From a virus (taxonomy: Duplodnaviria > Heunggongvirae > Uroviricota > Caudoviricetes): a stretch of 47,716 nt of DNA. This document shows positions 27,001 to 33,000 of this stretch, in pieces; positions within the stretch are counted from its first letter, which is position 1; every line of letters starts with the position of its first letter. The DNA lies in the IMG/VR virus record IMGVR_UViG_2925929528_000002, positions 1 to 47,716 of that record. One strand, written 5' to 3'. The position numbers were made by a program.

Positions 27001-30000
27001 ATCTTCAACCGTCGGCGAACAGGCCCGCACAGACAGCCAGTTAAGGCCAAATGTGGCGGTTCGCTCTTCCGCCAGTGCAATGGGATCGCCCTCGCGAGTA
27101 ATCGGGTATTTATCCACCTCATCCGCCAGCAGAACACGGATCGGACGGCGGGCAAGGTTATCGGGACTACCGGCGCCAGCCAGCGCCAGAAATCCGCCAG
27201 TGAAGGCTTTATACAGAATGGTTTCTTTCGAGCTCTTCTGTTTTGAGTCACCTATGATATTACGCAAGACTGGCGTCACGCGAACCAGAGGGCTTATACG
27301 TTCTTTCGAAAACTGCTCTGCAGCTTCCTCTTTCGGCTGCAGAAGTAAAATCGGGCATGGATCGAGGTGGGCGAAATAACCAAACAGGTTTTCCAGCAGC
27401 GCGGTTTTCATTAACTGGGTACAGCACATCACAGTGATAATGTGGACGCCCGATTCCGTCGCGGCCAGCATAGGACCGCGGGCGATCTCTACCGTTGAGG
27501 TTTCCCAGTTCCCGGAGGTGCTGCCAGCTTCTTTCGCCAGCTTCCGGTAATCATCGGCCCATTGCGGGACGCTGATCCGCGGCGGCGGTGTCCACCCTTT
27601 TCGGACACTCAGTTGAAGACGCTCAATCTTCCGCTGGGTTAAACTCTGGTTCTCCGAGGACTGAGATATGTTTGTGGACATGTTCAATCAGCACCTCTGT
27701 CATCCTGTCCGCCGGCACATTCAGATCGGCGGCTATCAGCGGTGCCACGCGTGAAGGCCAGTTCAGCCAGGCATCACGTTGCTGGCGAAAGGCGTTAAAC
27801 AGAACCTCCTCGGCGATGGCCAATTCAATTGTCTGGCCGCTGTCTTTTTCATACTGGAGCTTTGCCTGCAGGGCCATGTAATTTTCACGGATCCGCGCGG
27901 CCTCTTCCCTGGAAAGGTCAGCACCTTCTGTAAGCATTATCTGGCGAACGGTTTCATCAATTTCATCGTCGCCATCATTCCGGGGTGCTGAGGATTTTTT
28001 CTTCTTCGCGTTTGATGCCCGCGGATCTTTTCCATCGCGGTTTTTCTTCATTGCGGCATCGCTCGCTTCAACATCAATCAGGTCACCATCCATGACGATA
28101 AACCGACCGGCCTTGATCCATCGGCCAATGGTCTTGCGATCGACGCCTGAATGTTGCGCGTACTGACTCTGATTCATCGTGGTCATGGGACATCACCTGG
28201 GACATTTTGGGGGTGGGACATTTACCTGGGACATTTTTGCAATGTCCCACACGAATGTCCCACTGGAATAAATGGAATAATCCGTGCTGGCTCTGGCATG
28301 GCTGGTGATCCCTTGGGGTGGGACATGGGACACAAAATAAAAACTTATAGCTAGGAAAACACTGCGGCGCGCAATGCCCGTACCTTACAAAAGTCTCAGG
28401 AAGGACCCAAACCCGAGGGGTGGGGTCACCTCGCCGTCCTGATTGCGTCAGCGATGGCACGGCTCAGCGCGCCGGGCATCAATGCTTCCGCCATAGTTCG
28501 TGAGCGGTCCATGTACCCGAGCACTGGCGACACGGGAAGAGCATCACCAAACCTCACCAGCAACTTAGGAGAGCGCTGTTTCGGCTTCAGCCTGCGCGTA
28601 CCGTTCGCTGAACGTTTTGCCCGTTTCTTCTTCGACTTCTTCGGCTTCCTGCGCTGCCAGACAGCGTTGACGCCGTTCACCTCTCCGACGAACACATTCG
28701 GCTTCGCCTTCATCTGCGAAAGCTTATTACGCGGCATGTTGCCGTATTTGTTCAGTTTGATGTTCTTTGGATTGAGGAGCGCCTGGCTGTTCAGCTTATG
28801 TTCGCCGCCAAATTCAAATGGTTCGAGATATTCAGCGGCGACATCACGCACAAAGACTTTCGCGCGGAGGTTGTTCTTTCTGGCGCCAGCAGAGCCCACT
28901 GAGTTTACGGTGAACGGCGTCGGCGATTCCAGTTTTCGTCCCAGCGCCACTTTTTGCGCTGCGGCGATATCCCTTACCACCGATGTCATGGCCTGGGCCG
29001 TGGCGAAAGGGATTTGCTTCTGCAACTGTTTGAGCTGCTGTGATAAATCTTTAAGCGAAGCCATGCTCAACTTCCTCGATTCACCGCTTGGTTATTAAGA
29101 CTTATATTGTAGATACAGAACATGTTTATGACGCATTTTTAGTCACCAGCCGATTATTAGTATTATGATAGGTGATATCCTTATTTATCTGCCTTTAATT
29201 CTTTTCTGGATATTTTCAGCATATTTTCAAAAAGACGCTTAGTCATTGAAAGAAGGTGTTCCTCTGCTTCACCATAATCCCAGCCGCGAAAGTGAACATC
29301 ATAATCAACGCGTTTTTCCTCATCAAGATAATCTCTTAATAATTTTGATGCGCTATCCGTAATTAGCAACTGGCCAACATGGCTATATTTTTTTATTAAA
29401 CTTCTTGCCCTTACGGCAGATAATTTCATTTCTCTGAGTTGTTCATCATTCAGTTCTACAAACTCAGGGTAATCTTCTGGGCCCTCCATTCTGTAGGATT
29501 TTAGATCGGAGTAATACTCCTGAAGGACTTTAATTTGATATATCCCATCAGTTAACTCAATAAATGCTGCCGCTCGTTTTTCCCACCACTTTTCACTATA
29601 AAAACGCTTCAATCCGAAAAACATTGCTATCCAAGCTCCGAACAACCCAGATAGTAAGCCAATCAAAAGCTGATAAAAATAATTCATTCCTACCTCCACA
29701 TCAGTTATTGAAGGTATTTTGCATTATCACAGGCACTAATGGAATACCTCCTGTAATGCCATTGCAAATCCTACCAGTAAGTGGCCTTTGCAATGGTTTT
29801 CATGAAGGAGGTTTTGATGCAGTATATGCTTTGCAACGATGAAGTGTGACCATAAATCTCATACGTTTATATCATTGCTGAAGATACTCATGCCGTGGAT
29901 AATTCTGCCCGAGTGTTAAGCCATTGAAAGAGTCATATCTCACCATCTTGGTCACCTTTCTGGAACTATCCTCTCCGGGCGTTTTTTTGTACATCATCAT

Positions 30001-33000
30001 TGGAAAGCACTCTGCGATGCTTAACGATCAGCGTCGTTGCATGTTGCGGGTAAGCAGCAGAAAAAAACATACATATCTACCGCTTACGCTTGTTGTTTCT
30101 GAGTTGGCTCCTAGGCTAGAAGAGCCATTACATAAAAGACCTTGCGTTTACTTACCCGTGGACCTCAAGGATGAGGCCATTTATTTAACTCAATGAGCAG
30201 GGGTAATGCTACGGCAGTTGGCTTGCACTGCTTTGTTGTGCGCCAGAATATCGCGCTTGGTCTGCTTATCCAGCACGTCGATATCGTGGTCGGTCAGGTA
30301 GATGACCCTCACCCAGCTGCAGGCCGTATCAACGACTACCGGGGCGGGTAAATCTTTCGCGCAGCTCGCGATCAACATCGTCATCGCCCATACGCTTAAC
30401 GTCTTCCTGTACATCACTGGCCCCTTTGACAACTTCCGCCTTACGTTCTGCCGTGGCGACGATGGCGGCGGCGTTCTCTTCGCTGCGCTGCTGCTCGGCC
30501 TTTGATTCAGCTTTACTGGTCCCGTGAGCGTGGCCAATACCGAAAGCGGCAGCGATAGCACCCAGGATGACGACCACCAGCCCAGCAATAATTTCAAAGC
30601 TCATTGCTGCGGCTCCTTCAGTTCGTCGGCCTTTTCTTTCAATGCTGGCTGGCGTACGTATTGCGATAGTACGGCCAGCACCACCAGCGCAGGGCTAATC
30701 AACGCAACAATGTTTGGCGGGAGGATATTTTTGATATCCGGCGGCAGCACCGCCCAGGCGTGCAGCGCAGCATCCGGGAACGACTGCGCCCACATGCCAA
30801 CCAGCGCGCCGATAGCCCCCAGCTTTACAGACCACGTTTTCAGCAGCAGGCTGGCATGGCCTACGAACTCCAGCCGGGTATATTTGCGCAGAAGTAGCAG
30901 AATGAGCACAGCCACCAGCACGAGCAAAGCGAAAATAACCATCTTCATAAGACACGCTCCTTAACCCAGCCGTAGAGAAAATCCTCATTGGCTTCGCGGC
31001 CCTCCGCCAGTTCAAGGTATCTGGCGCCCTGGCTGCAGTTCAGTGATCTCAGCAGCACCTGCTCGCCTTCTTTCCCGCGGGCTGAAAGATACCCCTTCAG
31101 AGCGGTGATAGTTCGGGGTCCAATCACACCATCCGGGATAAGGTCGGGATACAGCTTCCCGCGCATATTCATTGCCGTCAGCCAGCGCTGAAAGAACTTA
31201 CTGGCGACACTGGGCCCCATGTTCACGCCAGTGTCGCAAAGCTCATCCGCCAGTAACGTAGATAGAGCTGCCACCTGGTCGAACCGGGGGCCAGTCCAGT
31301 AATCGCTCAGCAGGATTTGCTTTGCTGTTTCCCTGGGCAGGTTTCGCATATCACCGGTGTAGCCATGTGCACGGGCGGTGGTTTGCGTGATGCCCCAGCG
31401 GGTCGGCCCGCCTTTATCAGAAGGGTGATCGACATAACCACCCTCTTTTCCGAGGATCCCCTCGATAATCTTTTCTGCTGTCATTGTGCTTTCACTCCGG
31501 TAATTCGTTCCCAGAAATATGTGAGCGCTACGGACCCCATAGCGCCACTGATACCGGCAGTGGCCAGTATCATGTAAATACTCAGGCCACCTTCAATGCT
31601 GATGAGCCCACCAATGACCCCGGTAAACGCTGAAACCACAATCTGCGCAAAAGCATTTATCCAGCTCCATTTCGCTTTGCCCTGCTTCACATCCATCAGG
31701 AATCGGACAAGGCCGCCCCAACCAGCAATGATCAGCAGAGCCAGCCAGGTGATTCCGGCCATGCTCTCTTTGTCTTGCATACGTTTAGCCATAATTACCG
31801 CCTCCGATGAAAGATCGGGAAGCTGTGTGAATAAATGTGCGGGCTCTGCGCAAGCGCCCTGCGATTGGGTTATGAACCGTCGCAGGTGAGCCCTGTATGG
31901 GGAAAGGCCGCCAGATTGATTTACGACAAAGCACTGTGTGAATGACGCTCTGGCCGCGCATTGAGGGCTTAAGTTGCAGAAAATCAACAGATAAAAGAAA
32001 TCAAGCCACTAAAATTAAGGAGCATAAATTCAACGCATTGATTTTATTAATAAAAAATAAACAAAAGCAAAAAATAGGAATGCAGACAAGCATATTTTAC
32101 TTATTATTAAGTAATTTACGGAATTTGACACCATAAAAATCAATAAAATCAATAAACCATAAATTCAGATTAATTAGTAAAGATTAACAAGTTTTAAGGG
32201 TTAGGATTTTTCTCACTACAACTATAAATTCCTGCCAATCAATGAAAGAACGTACTTTGGGGTAGAAATTACATGTCAAATTTACTGATGCTAGCCTTAG
32301 CTATAGCTCTTCTTCTTATTAGTATTGGTTTTCTTGTCTCTTATATAAGAGACAGGAAAAAATATAAAAATACTTTTAAAAATAGGCGTTGATAACCACT
32401 CATCAGAAATAGAAAGAGGTTAGACACATCTTCTAACCAATAAAATTATAAACCTAAGGGATTTCGACCAAATCATTTTCATAACTTCGCGTTAGCTAAC
32501 AATTTCTATGACTGAACACGCTGCAAATAAAAAGACTTAACTAGTTTGCATAGGCTGGAGTGTCGCGATTATTTACAGTGCTGTAGTAAATCGCTATGAT
32601 TTACGGACTGGGGAAGCCTGAGACTCACCCCAGTGTCCTTAAAATCTGATTGATGCTTTTGAGGTCCGCTTCCCGAAGTGGACTTTTTTTTACCCAAAGA
32701 AAAGGCCCGCCGAAGCGAGCCTGCCACTGCTGTTTCTTTGTTTGTATTGGTTGTGGTGCCGGGTGCCTCCCAGTGGAGGCATATGCGGCCTCAGATCCCC
32801 GCTTGCTATCCTTGGACCAAAAAAGCCAGAAAGCCGCAGCGCCCCTCCGCTTAGGGGGATTCACCACGCCAGAAATTTAACATCTGAAGATAATCGTTAC
32901 AATGCCCTACGACGATGTGACAGGGGTACTGATGCAATGCAAATAGACCTACTCTCGGAGCAAGGATAACAACTTTTCCGTACTCTCTTCTGTAAGTTCG

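What the first reader, a model, noticed from the sequence alone, without database searches (positions are those of the whole stretch)
29181..30189. AT-rich membrane-anchored protein gene plus ~490 bp non-coding DNA between lysis cassette and cos-proximal gene
A 172-aa protein with a single N-terminal TM helix and charged C-terminal domain lies in visibly AT-rich DNA, followed by a long non-coding stretch. This is atypical for the compact late operon and looks like inserted cargo (for example a superinfection-exclusion or abortive-infection function).
Basis: inference. Interest (0 to 1): 0.45.

Follow-up and report, generated by a model that had tools for sequence, protein, structure and literature searches.

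The report
Membrane-anchored cargo gene in prophage
An AT-rich, horizontally mobile gene for a small inner-membrane-anchored helical-bundle protein of unknown function sits in the known cargo slot between a prophage's lysis and DNA-packaging genes. It lies just behind a conserved 40-nt hairpin that marks the entrance to that slot in well over a hundred related phages.

Summary
The gene (minus strand) most likely starts at ATG 29687, giving 168 aa. It has GC 0.37 against 0.54-0.57 in its flanks. About 490 nt without a credible gene separate it from the o-spanin.

It is a real gene under purifying selection. It encodes one N-terminal transmembrane helix (N-out/C-in) running straight into a cytoplasmic four-helix bundle. 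It matches only PHROG 17948 (unknown function). Pfam, NCBIfam, PADLOC, PDB and fold searches gave nothing specific.

The family is large (751 representatives), spans many phyla, is stand-alone and is AT-richer than its flanks in 93% of loci. Close homologs always lie between lysis and packaging genes on the late strand, whatever the lysis or terminase type. Phages with the nearest lysis cassette lack it. So it is swappable cargo, not a lysis accessory.

The gap is a recombination scar ending in a 40-nt hairpin (29721-29760). That hairpin is nearly invariant, with unrelated flanks and 44 different downstream cargo gene families.

The function is inferred only: most likely a membrane-level factor in phage conflict. 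It is a new member of a known kind, of moderate interest.

The parts
29181..29687 (-). Cargo gene. 168-aa protein (stop at 29181-29183) with a TM helix at about residues 4-25 containing small-xxx-small motifs (G10, G14, G17), the juxtamembrane motif LKRFYSEKWWEKR, and a cytoplasmic four-helix bundle (helices 3-68, 81-107, 111-133, 138-163).
   Evidence: start and homologs; model, pLDDT 84.6; single TM, positive-inside; dN/dS 0.28 against L004; PHROG 17948, E=1e-20; GC 0.367, GC3 0.327.
29688..29720 (-). Short leader with Shine-Dalgarno GGAGG (29693-29697), 5 nt before the ATG. It is conserved with the other carriers of the gene.
29721..29760 (-). Degenerate copy (5 mismatches) of a 40-nt hairpin element, consensus GGCATTACAGCAGGCATTCACTGAGTGCCTGTGATAATGC. 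It marks the 5' edge of the cargo slot. It contains an extended -10-like TGTGATAAT at 29723-29731.
   Evidence: shared with phi80, Klebsiella, E. coli, Citrobacter and Enterobacter phages; 134 instances with unrelated flanks; fold; pair counts; position between lysis and packaging genes; coordinates.
29761..30047 (.). Orphan AT-rich non-coding DNA (GC 0.425). It was found only in two near-identical contigs (L020, L021). It holds a weak sigma-70-like site on the late strand (-35 GTCACA at 29845-29850, -10 TATACT at 29821-29826).
30048..30189 (-). Conserved tail of the lysis module, 94% identical to Klebsiella phage ST13-OXA48phi12.4 and also present in the E. coli F5 prophage. In the E. coli F5 prophage a small 54-aa membrane ORF starts here. 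In the window it is cut off after a few codons.
30190..30414 (-). o-spanin (Rz1-type lipoprotein, lipobox LIASC), overlapping the end of the i-spanin gene. This is the last gene of the lysis cassette and the upper border of the gap.
   Evidence: translation; annotated O-spanin in KPP5665-2 at the homologous place.
30329..30604 (-). i-spanin (Rz-like).
   Evidence: phrog_1026 Rz-like spanin, E=9e-30.
29071..29180 (-). 110-nt spacer after the cargo gene with no terminator-like structure. Transcription should therefore continue into the 214-aa gene and the terminase genes.
   Evidence: fold z-score +1.45.
28426..29070 (-). GC-rich 214-aa gene (PHROG 1924). It is part of the phage backbone shared with L004, L020 and L021, not part of the AT-rich cargo.

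Best explanation
SHOWN.
- The gene is a mobile, dispensable cargo gene lodged in the variable lysis-to-packaging slot of a lambdoid prophage.
- It encodes a bitopic inner-membrane protein. A very short N-terminus faces the periplasm. There is one TM helix with small-xxx-small packing motifs. A cytoplasmic four-helix bundle grows directly out of the TM helix.
- The only strongly conserved residues lie in the membrane-proximal motif [RK]F[YRK]xE[KR][WL]W[ED][KR].
- It belongs to a large, uncharacterised family of stand-alone genes that spans many phyla.
- In phages these genes occupy accessory slots: lysis-to-terminase, between the SPP1-gp7-like head protein and the next head gene, and next to xis/int. 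In chromosomes they lie in unrelated, mixed neighbourhoods, only a few of them next to integrases or transposases.
- The roughly 490-nt gap is a recombination scar. It consists of the tail of the lysis module with a truncated small ORF, then 287 nt of orphan DNA, then a 40-nt hairpin that forms the conserved 5' junction of this cargo slot in many phages.

INFERRED.
- The gene is on the late strand and has no terminator before or after it. It is therefore transcribed with the Q-dependent late operon after induction. It may also be transcribed in the lysogen from a weak upstream promoter.
- The protein has no catalytic signature. It most likely works by protein-protein or protein-lipid contacts at the inner leaflet, probably as a TM-mediated oligomer.
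- Its most likely role is in conflict between phages, acting at the membrane: blocking DNA entry or productive infection by a second phage, or permeabilising the membrance in an abortive response. I put the conflict role at about 45%. I put the 'mobile accessory membrane-protein cargo' part at over 90%.
For: - Real gene: 34 homologs at 51-99% identity. dN/dS is 0.28 against L004, and synonymous sites are saturated against more distant homologs.
- Architecture: AlphaFold2 model with pLDDT 84.6 and four helices. All 72 family members have a single N-terminal hydrophobic segment, with 0.25 K+R before it and 4.29 K+R after it.
- Conservation: W35 is invariant and F29 and E32 are nearly invariant across 72 diverse members.
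- Family size and spread: 751 representatives at E<=1e-3, in many phyla and in 124 viral contigs.
- No conserved partner gene: neighbours are mixed and include integrases, transposases, BrxL and AAA_21.
- Cargo status, composition: the gene is AT-richer than its flanks in 93% of 102 non-redundant loci, by 9.1 points on average, p=8e-18.
- Cargo status, presence and absence: it is absent from Klebsiella and E. coli phages that share the lysis cassette at 90-92% identity and carry other genes there. It is present with GH108, T4-lysozyme-type and GH19 lysis cassettes and with GpA/Nu1, DUF1441 or Terminase_4/TerL packaging genes.
- Cargo status, head-module slot: only 15 of 80 phages with a gp7-like protein at least 81% identical carry it there. 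The rest have nothing or unrelated small ORFs.
- Junction: homology with other carriers starts at 29759/29760.
- Hairpin: 134 instances with unrelated flanks and 44 downstream ORF clusters. In 81 of 83 instances a lysis gene lies upstream on the same strand.
- No terminator near the gene.
- The slot is an experimentally shown immunity locus in phi80 (PMC11364771).
Against: - There is no match to any known defence, exclusion or abortive-infection model, for the window protein or convincingly for the family.
- Fold searches return only generic four-helix bundles.
- Every close homolog in a phage is co-oriented with the late operon. In contrast, the recognisable defence genes of the same related prophages (PD-Lambda-5_A in L014, a PtuA/GajA-like ATPase in L023) and phi80 taiEcA lie on the opposite strand. 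This fits a function during lytic growth as well as, or better than, a lysogen-expressed defence.
- No convincing promoter was found. The candidates are one 9/12 consensus site and a -10-like motif in the hairpin that is not kept in diverged copies.
- The soluble domain is cytoplasmic. This is not the side from which most known injection blockers are thought to act (from memory, not tested).
- Many chromosomal family members sit among ordinary metabolic genes.
Confidence: 0.5

Rival explanations
1. The gene encodes a late-expressed helper of the phage itself. It would be a counter-defence or self-immunity factor, by analogy with phi80 AtiEcA. AtiEcA lies in the same slot on the late strand and is made from the Q-dependent transcript. 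This protein would neutralise a membrane-acting host or prophage defence, or protect the induced cell during particle production.
For: - The gene is strictly co-oriented with the late operon in all close homologs.
- It has no terminator and no convincing promoter of its own.
- In the head-module branch it is tightly packed inside a late operon.
- phi80 provides a precedent (PMC11364771).
Against: - It has no similarity to AtiEcA or TaiEcA.
- Family members also occur alone in chromosomes of many phyla, away from phage genes. This is unexpected for a phage-specific counter-defence.
- No partner defence gene is conserved next to it.
Confidence: 0.2
2. The gene encodes a lysis accessory, such as an antiholin or lysis-timing regulator. 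Anchored in the inner membrane, it would modulate the holin encoded just upstream.
For: - It is a membrane protein lying directly downstream of holin, endolysin and spanin genes on the same strand.
- This position is conserved in all close homologs.
Against: - It co-occurs with at least four unrelated holin families: Phage_holin_3_3, 2_1, 8 plus 3_7, and 2_3.
- It is missing from the phages whose lysis cassette is 90-92% identical to this one.
- More distant members sit in head modules, beside xis/int, or in non-phage DNA.
- The same slot holds 44 unrelated gene families.
- It has no match to any holin or antiholin family in Pfam or PHROGs.
Confidence: 0.1
3. The gene confers lysogenic conversion unrelated to phages. 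The membrane protein would change host envelope physiology, for example stress tolerance in the manner of other TM-plus-helical-bundle proteins.
For: - The family is widespread in chromosomes next to ordinary genes.
- It has no defence signature.
- The slot also carries BamE-like lipoproteins and other envelope proteins.
Against: - Many members were found on viral contigs and in phage accessory slots: 124 viral stretches in IMG/VR.
- The gene is consistently AT-rich and patchily distributed, which is typical of conflict genes.
- It has no match to LemA or any other envelope family.
Confidence: 0.12
4. The protein is a membrane tether for head assembly or DNA packaging. This is suggested by its placement just before packaging and head genes in two branches of the family.
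For: - Close homologs lie just upstream of terS/terL.
- Thirteen family clusters lie between the SPP1-gp7-like protein and the next head gene.
Against: - Only 15 of 80 phages with a gp7-like protein at least 81% identical have it. The others have nothing or unrelated small ORFs there.
- It is absent from related Klebsiella phages.
- It also occurs next to xis/int and outside phages.
Confidence: 0.03

Closest known systems
PHROG 17948 (phage protein family, function unknown)
   Same: The match is full-length (residues 6-171, E=9.8e-21). This is the only library family the protein belongs to.
   Different: The PHROG carries no function. The family found here is much wider: 751 representatives, many outside phages.
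Cargo of the phi80 orf62-orf66 region (TaiEcA defence / AtiEcA counter-defence; PMC11364771)
   Same: It occupies the same genomic slot, after the lysis genes and before cos and the packaging genes. The same 40-nt hairpin stands at the entrance of the slot in phi80, immediately after rha and before taiEcA. It has the same late-strand orientation as atiEcA.
   Different: No sequence or profile similarity to either protein. TaiEcA is a 26-kDa protein encoded on the opposite strand. This protein is membrane-anchored, and no membrane anchor is reported for TaiEcA in the passages I read.
Morons of lambdoid phages (Hendrix/Juhala concept; examples lambda bor and lom, HK97 gp15; from memory)
   Same: An extra gene of deviant composition, present in some and absent from other otherwise similar phages, and inserted between functional modules.
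   Different: The classical moron has its own promoter and terminator. Here no terminator exists and the promoter is doubtful.
Single-pass membrane superinfection-exclusion proteins (lactococcal Sie2009, P22 SieA, T4 Imm, HK97 gp15; from memory)
   Same: A small prophage-borne protein with an N-terminal membrane anchor, encoded by AT-rich accessory DNA.
   Different: No detectable homology: there are no Pfam, NCBIfam or PADLOC hits at all. The soluble domain is predicted to be cytoplasmic. No phenotype is known.
Csx28 / tm_HEPN (membrane proteins associated with Cas13b)
   Same: An N-terminal TM segment followed by a small all-helical cytoplasmic domain. Two of 72 family members give weak hits to tm_HEPN (E=8.7e-5), and one each to Csx28 and Csx27.
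LemA family (PF04011; TM helix plus four-helix bundle; from memory)
   Same: The same gross architecture and size.
   Different: No Pfam match for the window protein at E<=0.1. LemA is not among the only five Pfam families hit by any of the 72 family members at E<=0.01.

Membership tests
PHROG 17948 | Significant full-length match to the family profile | tested here: met
   E=9.8e-21, residues 6-171 against profile positions 5-168 of 185.
Moron / accessory cargo of lambdoid phages | Present in some and absent from other closely related phages at the same position | tested here: met
   The gene is absent from 11 phages that share the lysis cassette at 89-92% identity; annotation was inspected for two of these plus the E. 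coli F5 prophage. It is present with unrelated lysis and terminase modules. In the head-module slot it is present in 15 of 80 phages.
Moron / accessory cargo of lambdoid phages | Base composition deviating from the surrounding phage genes | tested here: met
   GC 0.367 against 0.54-0.57, and GC3 0.327 against 0.56-0.68. Family-wide the gene is 9.1 points lower than its flanks, p=8e-18.
Moron / accessory cargo of lambdoid phages | Own sigma-70 promoter upstream | tested here: inconclusive
   One 9/12 consensus site lies at 29821-29850. The hairpin contains TGTGATAAT, but this motif is lost in diverged copies. No expression data are available.
Moron / accessory cargo of lambdoid phages | Own intrinsic terminator downstream | tested here: not met
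   There is no terminator-like site on the late strand between 29071 and 29180. That spacer folds worse than shuffled sequence, z=+1.45.
Known anti-phage defence / abortive-infection proteins (PADLOC-DB 2.0) | Profile match to a defence-system protein | tested here: not met
   There were 0 families at E<=1 for the window protein. Among 72 family members there were only scattered weak hits, with no family hit by more than 2 members.
Superinfection-exclusion proteins | Blocks DNA entry or plating of a second phage when expressed | not testable with these tools
   This needs plating and DNA-injection assays. No sequence relative with such a phenotype was found.
Holin / antiholin | Match to a holin or antiholin family, and co-inheritance with a particular holin | tested here: not met
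   There is no holin family hit. The gene occurs with four unrelated holin types and is absent beside the most similar holin.
Csx28 / tm_HEPN | HEPN R-x4-6-H motif and profile match | tested here: not met
   The window protein has no hit. No conserved Arg/His pair exists outside the juxtamembrane motif. Only 2 of 72 members give weak hits.
Tai / Ati system of phi80 | Homology to TaiEcA (orf63) or AtiEcA (orf64) | tested here: not met
   hhalign probability is 0.2% for TaiEcA and 0.03% for AtiEcA. Only the genomic slot is shared.
Described RNA families (Rfam 15), for the gap and hairpin | Covariance-model match | tested here: not met
   The only hit was a chance-level match to RUF20 (16 bits against a gathering score of 60), and it lies inside the ORF.
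Intrinsic terminator, for the 40-nt hairpin | GC-rich stem followed by a U-tract | tested here: not met
   The stem is present. What follows is TGC plus variable sequence, with no T-run in the 102 contexts examined.

The most novel reading that the evidence does not exclude
The 168-aa protein would be the first noticed member of an unrecognised, phylum-spanning family of single-gene, membrane-anchored four-helix-bundle effectors of phage conflict (exclusion, abortive infection or counter-defence). It would be delivered into lambdoid phages through a cassette-like slot. The entrance of that slot is a 40-nt, nearly invariant RNA/DNA hairpin. The hairpin would serve as a recombination linker, being long enough for Red/RecT-type exchange, and perhaps as a processing site that lets any inserted gene be expressed from the late transcript.
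Probability: 0.25. Interest if true: 0.6.

Novelty: new member of a known kind. Interest (0 to 1): 0.4.

Why it matters
The lysis-to-packaging interval of lambdoid prophages is emerging as an immunity hotspot; phi80 Tai/Ati is the worked example. This gene is one of at least 44 unrelated gene families found right behind the same conserved hairpin in that interval. It belongs to a large family with no annotation in any library.

If the protein acts in phage conflict, it adds a simple, single-gene, membrane-level mechanism found in many phyla. The hairpin gives a practical handle in its own right: a 36-nt pattern that locates the cargo slot, and hence candidate defence and counter-defence genes, in Enterobacterales prophages. 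If neither proves functional, the locus is an ordinary mosaic joint with a hypothetical membrane protein.

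Tried and rejected
- Library searches. Pfam, NCBIfam and PADLOC scans of the window protein and of 72 family members gave nothing usable.
- Partner genes. I clustered neighbours over 172 loci and ran a Pfam census of 149 neighbours. Apart from the head genes of one phage lineage, no conserved partner was found.
- Other cargo proteins. I tested whether other N-terminal-TM cargo proteins found behind the hairpin are distant relatives. They are not.
- phi80 proteins. I tested relatedness to TaiEcA and AtiEcA. There is none.
- The 90-aa plus-strand ORF in the gap. It has only 3 partial hits, which cover only about half of the query, so I rejected it as a gene.
- The orphan 287 nt. 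It matches only two near-identical contigs, plus a faint 36-nt extension resembling the 3' end of DUF2560-type genes.
- The hairpin as promoter. The -10-like motif is not conserved where the stems are kept by compensatory changes.
- The hairpin as terminator. There is no U-tract.
- Literature. Full-text searches for the hairpin sequence and for the PHROG number found nothing.
- Morphogenesis role. The presence/absence pattern rejects it.

Full report
**Layout of the region**

All relevant genes are on the minus strand, which is the direction of the late operon. Reading in that direction:
- a LydA-type holin (within 31481-31987);
- a GH108/PG_binding_3 endolysin (30945-31484);
- a DUF7940 holin-like protein (30601-30948);
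- an Rz-like i-spanin (30329-30604), with an overlapping Rz1-type lipoprotein that ends at 30190;
- a gap of about 490 nt;
- the ORF of the finding (29181-29699);
- 110 nt of spacer;
- a 214-aa gene (28426-29070);
- the small terminase subunit (27623-28186) and a GpA-type large subunit (25555-27687).

The window is a lambdoid prophage. Its Q antiterminator is at 33516-34274 and its integrase at 44455-45441.

**Check of the observation**

The ORF is there. All 34 homologs in a 5.8-billion-protein collection are 166-168 aa (a few fragments or extensions aside) and begin MNY.... ATG 29687 is preceded by GGAGG with a 5-nt spacer, while the GTG at 29699 overlaps that Shine-Dalgarno. The product is therefore most likely 168 aa.

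The ORF has GC 0.367 and GC3 0.327. Neighbouring genes have GC 0.54-0.57 and GC3 0.56-0.68. The window average is 0.496 with sd 0.073.

The gap 29700-30189 has stop codons in all six frames. It has no Rfam match. Its one sizeable ORF, 90 aa on the opposite strand, has only three partial database matches, which cover only about half of the query.

**The protein**

An AlphaFold2 model built on 22 homologs has mean pLDDT 84.6. It shows one long helix (residues 3-68) followed by three more (81-107, 111-133, 138-163). This is a transmembrane helix continuing into the first helix of a four-helix bundle.

In all 72 members of a broad alignment there is exactly one hydrophobic segment, at the N-terminus. 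On average 0.25 Lys/Arg precede it and 4.29 lie in the 15 residues after it. By the positive-inside rule the bundle is cytoplasmic.

The TM helix carries small-xxx-small motifs, and G14, A18 and W19 are invariant among close homologs. Across the wide family only the membrane-proximal motif is conserved: W35 is invariant, and F29 and E32 are nearly so. No Arg/His or metal-binding pattern is conserved, so an enzymatic role is unlikely.

The gene is under purifying selection. dN/dS is 0.28 against the 86%-identical homolog. Against more distant homologs synonymous sites are saturated while pN is 0.20-0.33.

**What it resembles**

The only library hit is PHROG 17948, function unknown (E=1e-20). 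The following gave nothing specific:
- Pfam, NCBIfam and PADLOC, for the window protein and for 72 family members;
- a profile search of PDB sequences;

**The family**

A profile search over 1.84 billion representative proteins finds 751 relatives at E<=1e-3, nearly all 150-200 aa. Scans of genomes and viral contigs find them in Enterobacterales, Burkholderia, Desulfobaccales, Gemmatimonadales, Chloroflexi, Bacteroidota, Omnitrophota and others. They also occur in 124 viral stretches.

I clustered the neighbours of 172 loci, which represent 104 family clusters at 80% identity. No partner gene is conserved. A Pfam census of 149 neighbours from 69 genome clusters is a mixture. Integrases and transposases are the commonest items, and there is an occasional BrxL or AAA_21 protein.

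The gene is AT-richer than its 3-kb flanks in 93% of 102 non-redundant loci, by 9.1 points on average (Wilcoxon p=8e-18). This is the signature of a stand-alone, horizontally moving accessory gene.

**Where it sits in phages**

Every close homolog (49-99% identity) found in a phage lies after the lysis genes and before the packaging genes, on the same strand.
- The lysis cassettes differ: GH108 with a LydA holin; T4-type lysozyme with holin_2_1 or holin_2_3; GH19 with holin_8 and holin_3_7.
- The packaging genes differ too: GpA with a window-type terS, Nu1 or DUF1441; or Terminase_4 with TerL, with or without HNH.
- One homolog, in Pectobacterium, is outside any recognisable phage, next to an ISL3 transposase.

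The eleven phages whose lysis cassette is 89-92% identical to the window's do not have the gene. The annotated examples I inspected — Klebsiella phages ST13-OXA48phi12.4 and KPP5665-2, plus the E. coli F5 prophage found in the separate search — carry TonB-like, BamE-like, DUF2560, HNH and other small genes in the same interval.

More distant members (about 25% identity) occupy two other places:
- next to xis/int in Serratia phage OS31 and Enterobacter phage CobraSix;
- between an SPP1-gp7-like head protein and the next head gene, in 13 family clusters.

I tested whether the head-module position reflects a core function. Among 80 phages whose gp7-like protein is at least 81% identical, 15 have the family gene there. 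The other 65 have nothing or unrelated small ORFs. The gene is dispensable cargo there too. This rules out a lysis-accessory or morphogenesis role tied to a particular module.

**Anatomy of the 'non-coding' gap**

Four pieces can be told apart:
- 30048-30189 is 94% identical to the DNA that follows the spanin genes in Klebsiella phage ST13-OXA48phi12.4 and in the E. coli F5 prophage. A small membrane ORF annotated in the E. coli F5 prophage at this place survives in the window for only a few codons.
- 29761-30047 matches nothing except two contigs that are near-identical to the window, L020 and L021.
- 29721-29760 is a 40-nt hairpin element, described below.
- 29688-29720 is the leader with the ribosome-binding site. 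It is shared with the other carriers of the gene.

Homology between the window and the other carriers begins exactly at 29759/29760. The gap is therefore a recombination scar, not a regulatory region designed for this gene.

**The hairpin element**

Its consensus is G-GCATTA-CA-GCAGGCATTC-ACT-GAGTGCCTGT-GA-TAATGC. It forms a 6-bp stem, a 2x2 internal loop, a 10-bp stem and a 3-nt loop.

With the loci already held, I have 134 instances. The element is almost invariant in sequence, while both flanks are unrelated across 102 distinct contexts.
- Upstream, the stop codon of very different genes abuts it at 0-2 nt. These include a DUF2560-type 81-aa gene, a 90-aa gene, spanins, and rha in phi80.
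- Downstream, 86 ORFs start within 120 nt, most often 34-36 nt away. They fall into 44 unrelated clusters, including HNH endonucleases, DUF551, DUF2513, a BamE-like lipoprotein, Lar and several membrane proteins. None belongs to a known defence system; the only PADLOC hits were two HNH ORFs weakly matching the ZorE HNH models.
- In 81 of 83 instances with enough flank a lysis gene lies upstream on the same strand. In 45 of 69 a packaging gene lies downstream, 25 to 5536 nt away. A packaging gene never lies upstream.

The structure is supported by the pair counts. 93% of cells are paired, and 6 of 16 pairs show changes on both sides, a count reached by 1 of 500 shuffles. Most of that signal comes from a few diverged copies upstream of family genes (L107, L112). 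Those copies keep both stems through compensatory changes while losing the -10-like TGTGATAAT.

The element has no U-tract, is not in Rfam and is unannotated in RefSeq. It occurs once in each of 94 of 5426 E. coli genomes, among them DH5-alpha-type strains and Nissle 1917; I did not check whether the copies lie in a phi80 prophage. I did not find its sequence in the literature library.

Its role is open. It is long enough to serve as a homology patch for Red/RecT-type exchange, which is known from recombineering practice and was not tested here. It also has the shape of an RNase III-type processing hairpin.

**Expression**

No terminator-like structure lies between the spanin genes and the cargo gene, or between the cargo gene and the 214-aa gene. 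The gene should therefore be transcribed with the Q-dependent late operon.

An own promoter is doubtful. There is one 9/12 consensus site at 29821-29850, plus the non-conserved -10-like motif in the hairpin.

In phi80 the corresponding region holds taiEcA, a defence gene on the opposite strand that is expressed in the lysogen. It also holds atiEcA, a counter-defence gene on the late strand that is expressed through Q. Tai homologs are reported to lie 'predominantly upstream of the packaging module' (PMC11364771).

In prophages related to the carriers of our gene, the recognisable defence genes also lie on the opposite strand, in the Q-to-holin slot. These are PD-Lambda-5_A in L014 and a PtuA/GajA-like ATPase in L023. 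The strict late-strand orientation of our gene therefore keeps a lytic-cycle function, such as counter-defence or self-protection, seriously in play.

**Verdict**

The finding is a genuine, correctly described locus. Its 'inserted cargo' reading is right and its 'lysis accessory' alternative is excluded.

The protein belongs to a large unannotated family of membrane-anchored four-helix-bundle proteins. My best-supported mechanism is action at the cytoplasmic face of the inner membrane, by binding rather than catalysis, in conflicts between phages. That rests on context, not on any homology or experiment, and I give it about 45%.

By kind, the locus is a new member of a known class: accessory cargo in a known prophage hotspot.

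The most reusable result is the conserved hairpin that flags the slot. It deserves its own follow-up.

Noticed in passing
window 29721-29760 (minus strand); also phi80 JX871397 44298-44337 and loci L179-L297: A 40-nt, nearly invariant hairpin lies between lysis and packaging genes in more than 130 Enterobacterales phage contigs. Both flanks are unrelated between contexts and 44 different ORF families lie downstream. It is unannotated, not in Rfam, and its sequence was not found in the literature search. It may be a recombination linker or an RNA processing site.
   Followed up: partly
L219 9012-9047 and 9364-9399: Two copies of the hairpin lie 352 nt apart. The ORF after the second copy is a 61-aa zinc-ribbon protein (9443-9625). 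The DNA between the copies was not examined. This is a possible cassette-like arrangement.
   Followed up: no
L117-L178 and L298-L377 (viral contigs): A second variable slot exists inside a head module, between an SPP1-gp7-like protein and the next head gene. It holds the family gene in 15 of 80 closely related phages. In the rest it holds other small ORFs (64, 78, 59 or 146 aa) or nothing.
   Followed up: yes
L005-L010, 8567-10024 (Enterobacter hormaechei prophages): A 485-aa protein with no Pfam or PADLOC match follows the family gene by 63 nt in all Enterobacter carriers. It could be a second cargo gene or a partner specific to that lineage.
   Followed up: partly
L014 1620-3182 (-) and L023 4398-6347 (-): Related prophages carry recognisable defence genes in the Q-to-holin slot on the opposite strand. 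L014 has PD-Lambda-5_A next to a D12 methyltransferase. L023 has a PtuA/GajA-like AAA ATPase. Their orientation contrasts with that of the family gene.
   Followed up: partly
window 31701-32800: The strongest AT-rich island of the window (GC down to 0.28) lies between the Q antiterminator and the holin. It contains only small ORFs, for example a 39-aa membrane-like ORF at 32273-32392 on the plus strand. This is the classic position for cargo downstream of pR'.
   Followed up: no
window 668-1888, 2468-3349, 7713-9041, 45001-47700: The window has further AT-rich patches. One holds an ISL3 transposase next to a DUF6236 protein. One holds a 442-aa ORF on the strand opposite to the tail genes, with no family match. 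One lies beyond the integrase and holds 265-aa and 350-aa ORFs without matches. An ISL3 transposase also sits near the Pectobacterium family member (L022).
   Followed up: partly
window 30048-30072 (minus strand): This is the start of a small membrane ORF that is 54 aa in the E. coli F5 prophage. In the window it is cut off after a few codons at the recombination joint, leaving a chimeric 34-aa ORF (29966-30070).
   Followed up: yes
window 28426-29070 (minus strand): The 214-aa gene just before cos/terS matches PHROG 1924, labelled 'minor tail protein' (E=2e-60). It has no Pfam or NCBIfam match, and its position ahead of the terminase genes makes that label doubtful.
   Followed up: no
phage records OM284015 (Elizabethkingia phage EKP1) and JQ177065 (Pectobacterium phage ZF40): The hairpin occurs at 100% and 97.6% identity in these records. 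EKP1 has a Bacteroidota host label, which is odd for an element otherwise confined to Enterobacterales phages. In ZF40 it overlaps a gene annotated as Mom-like.
   Followed up: no
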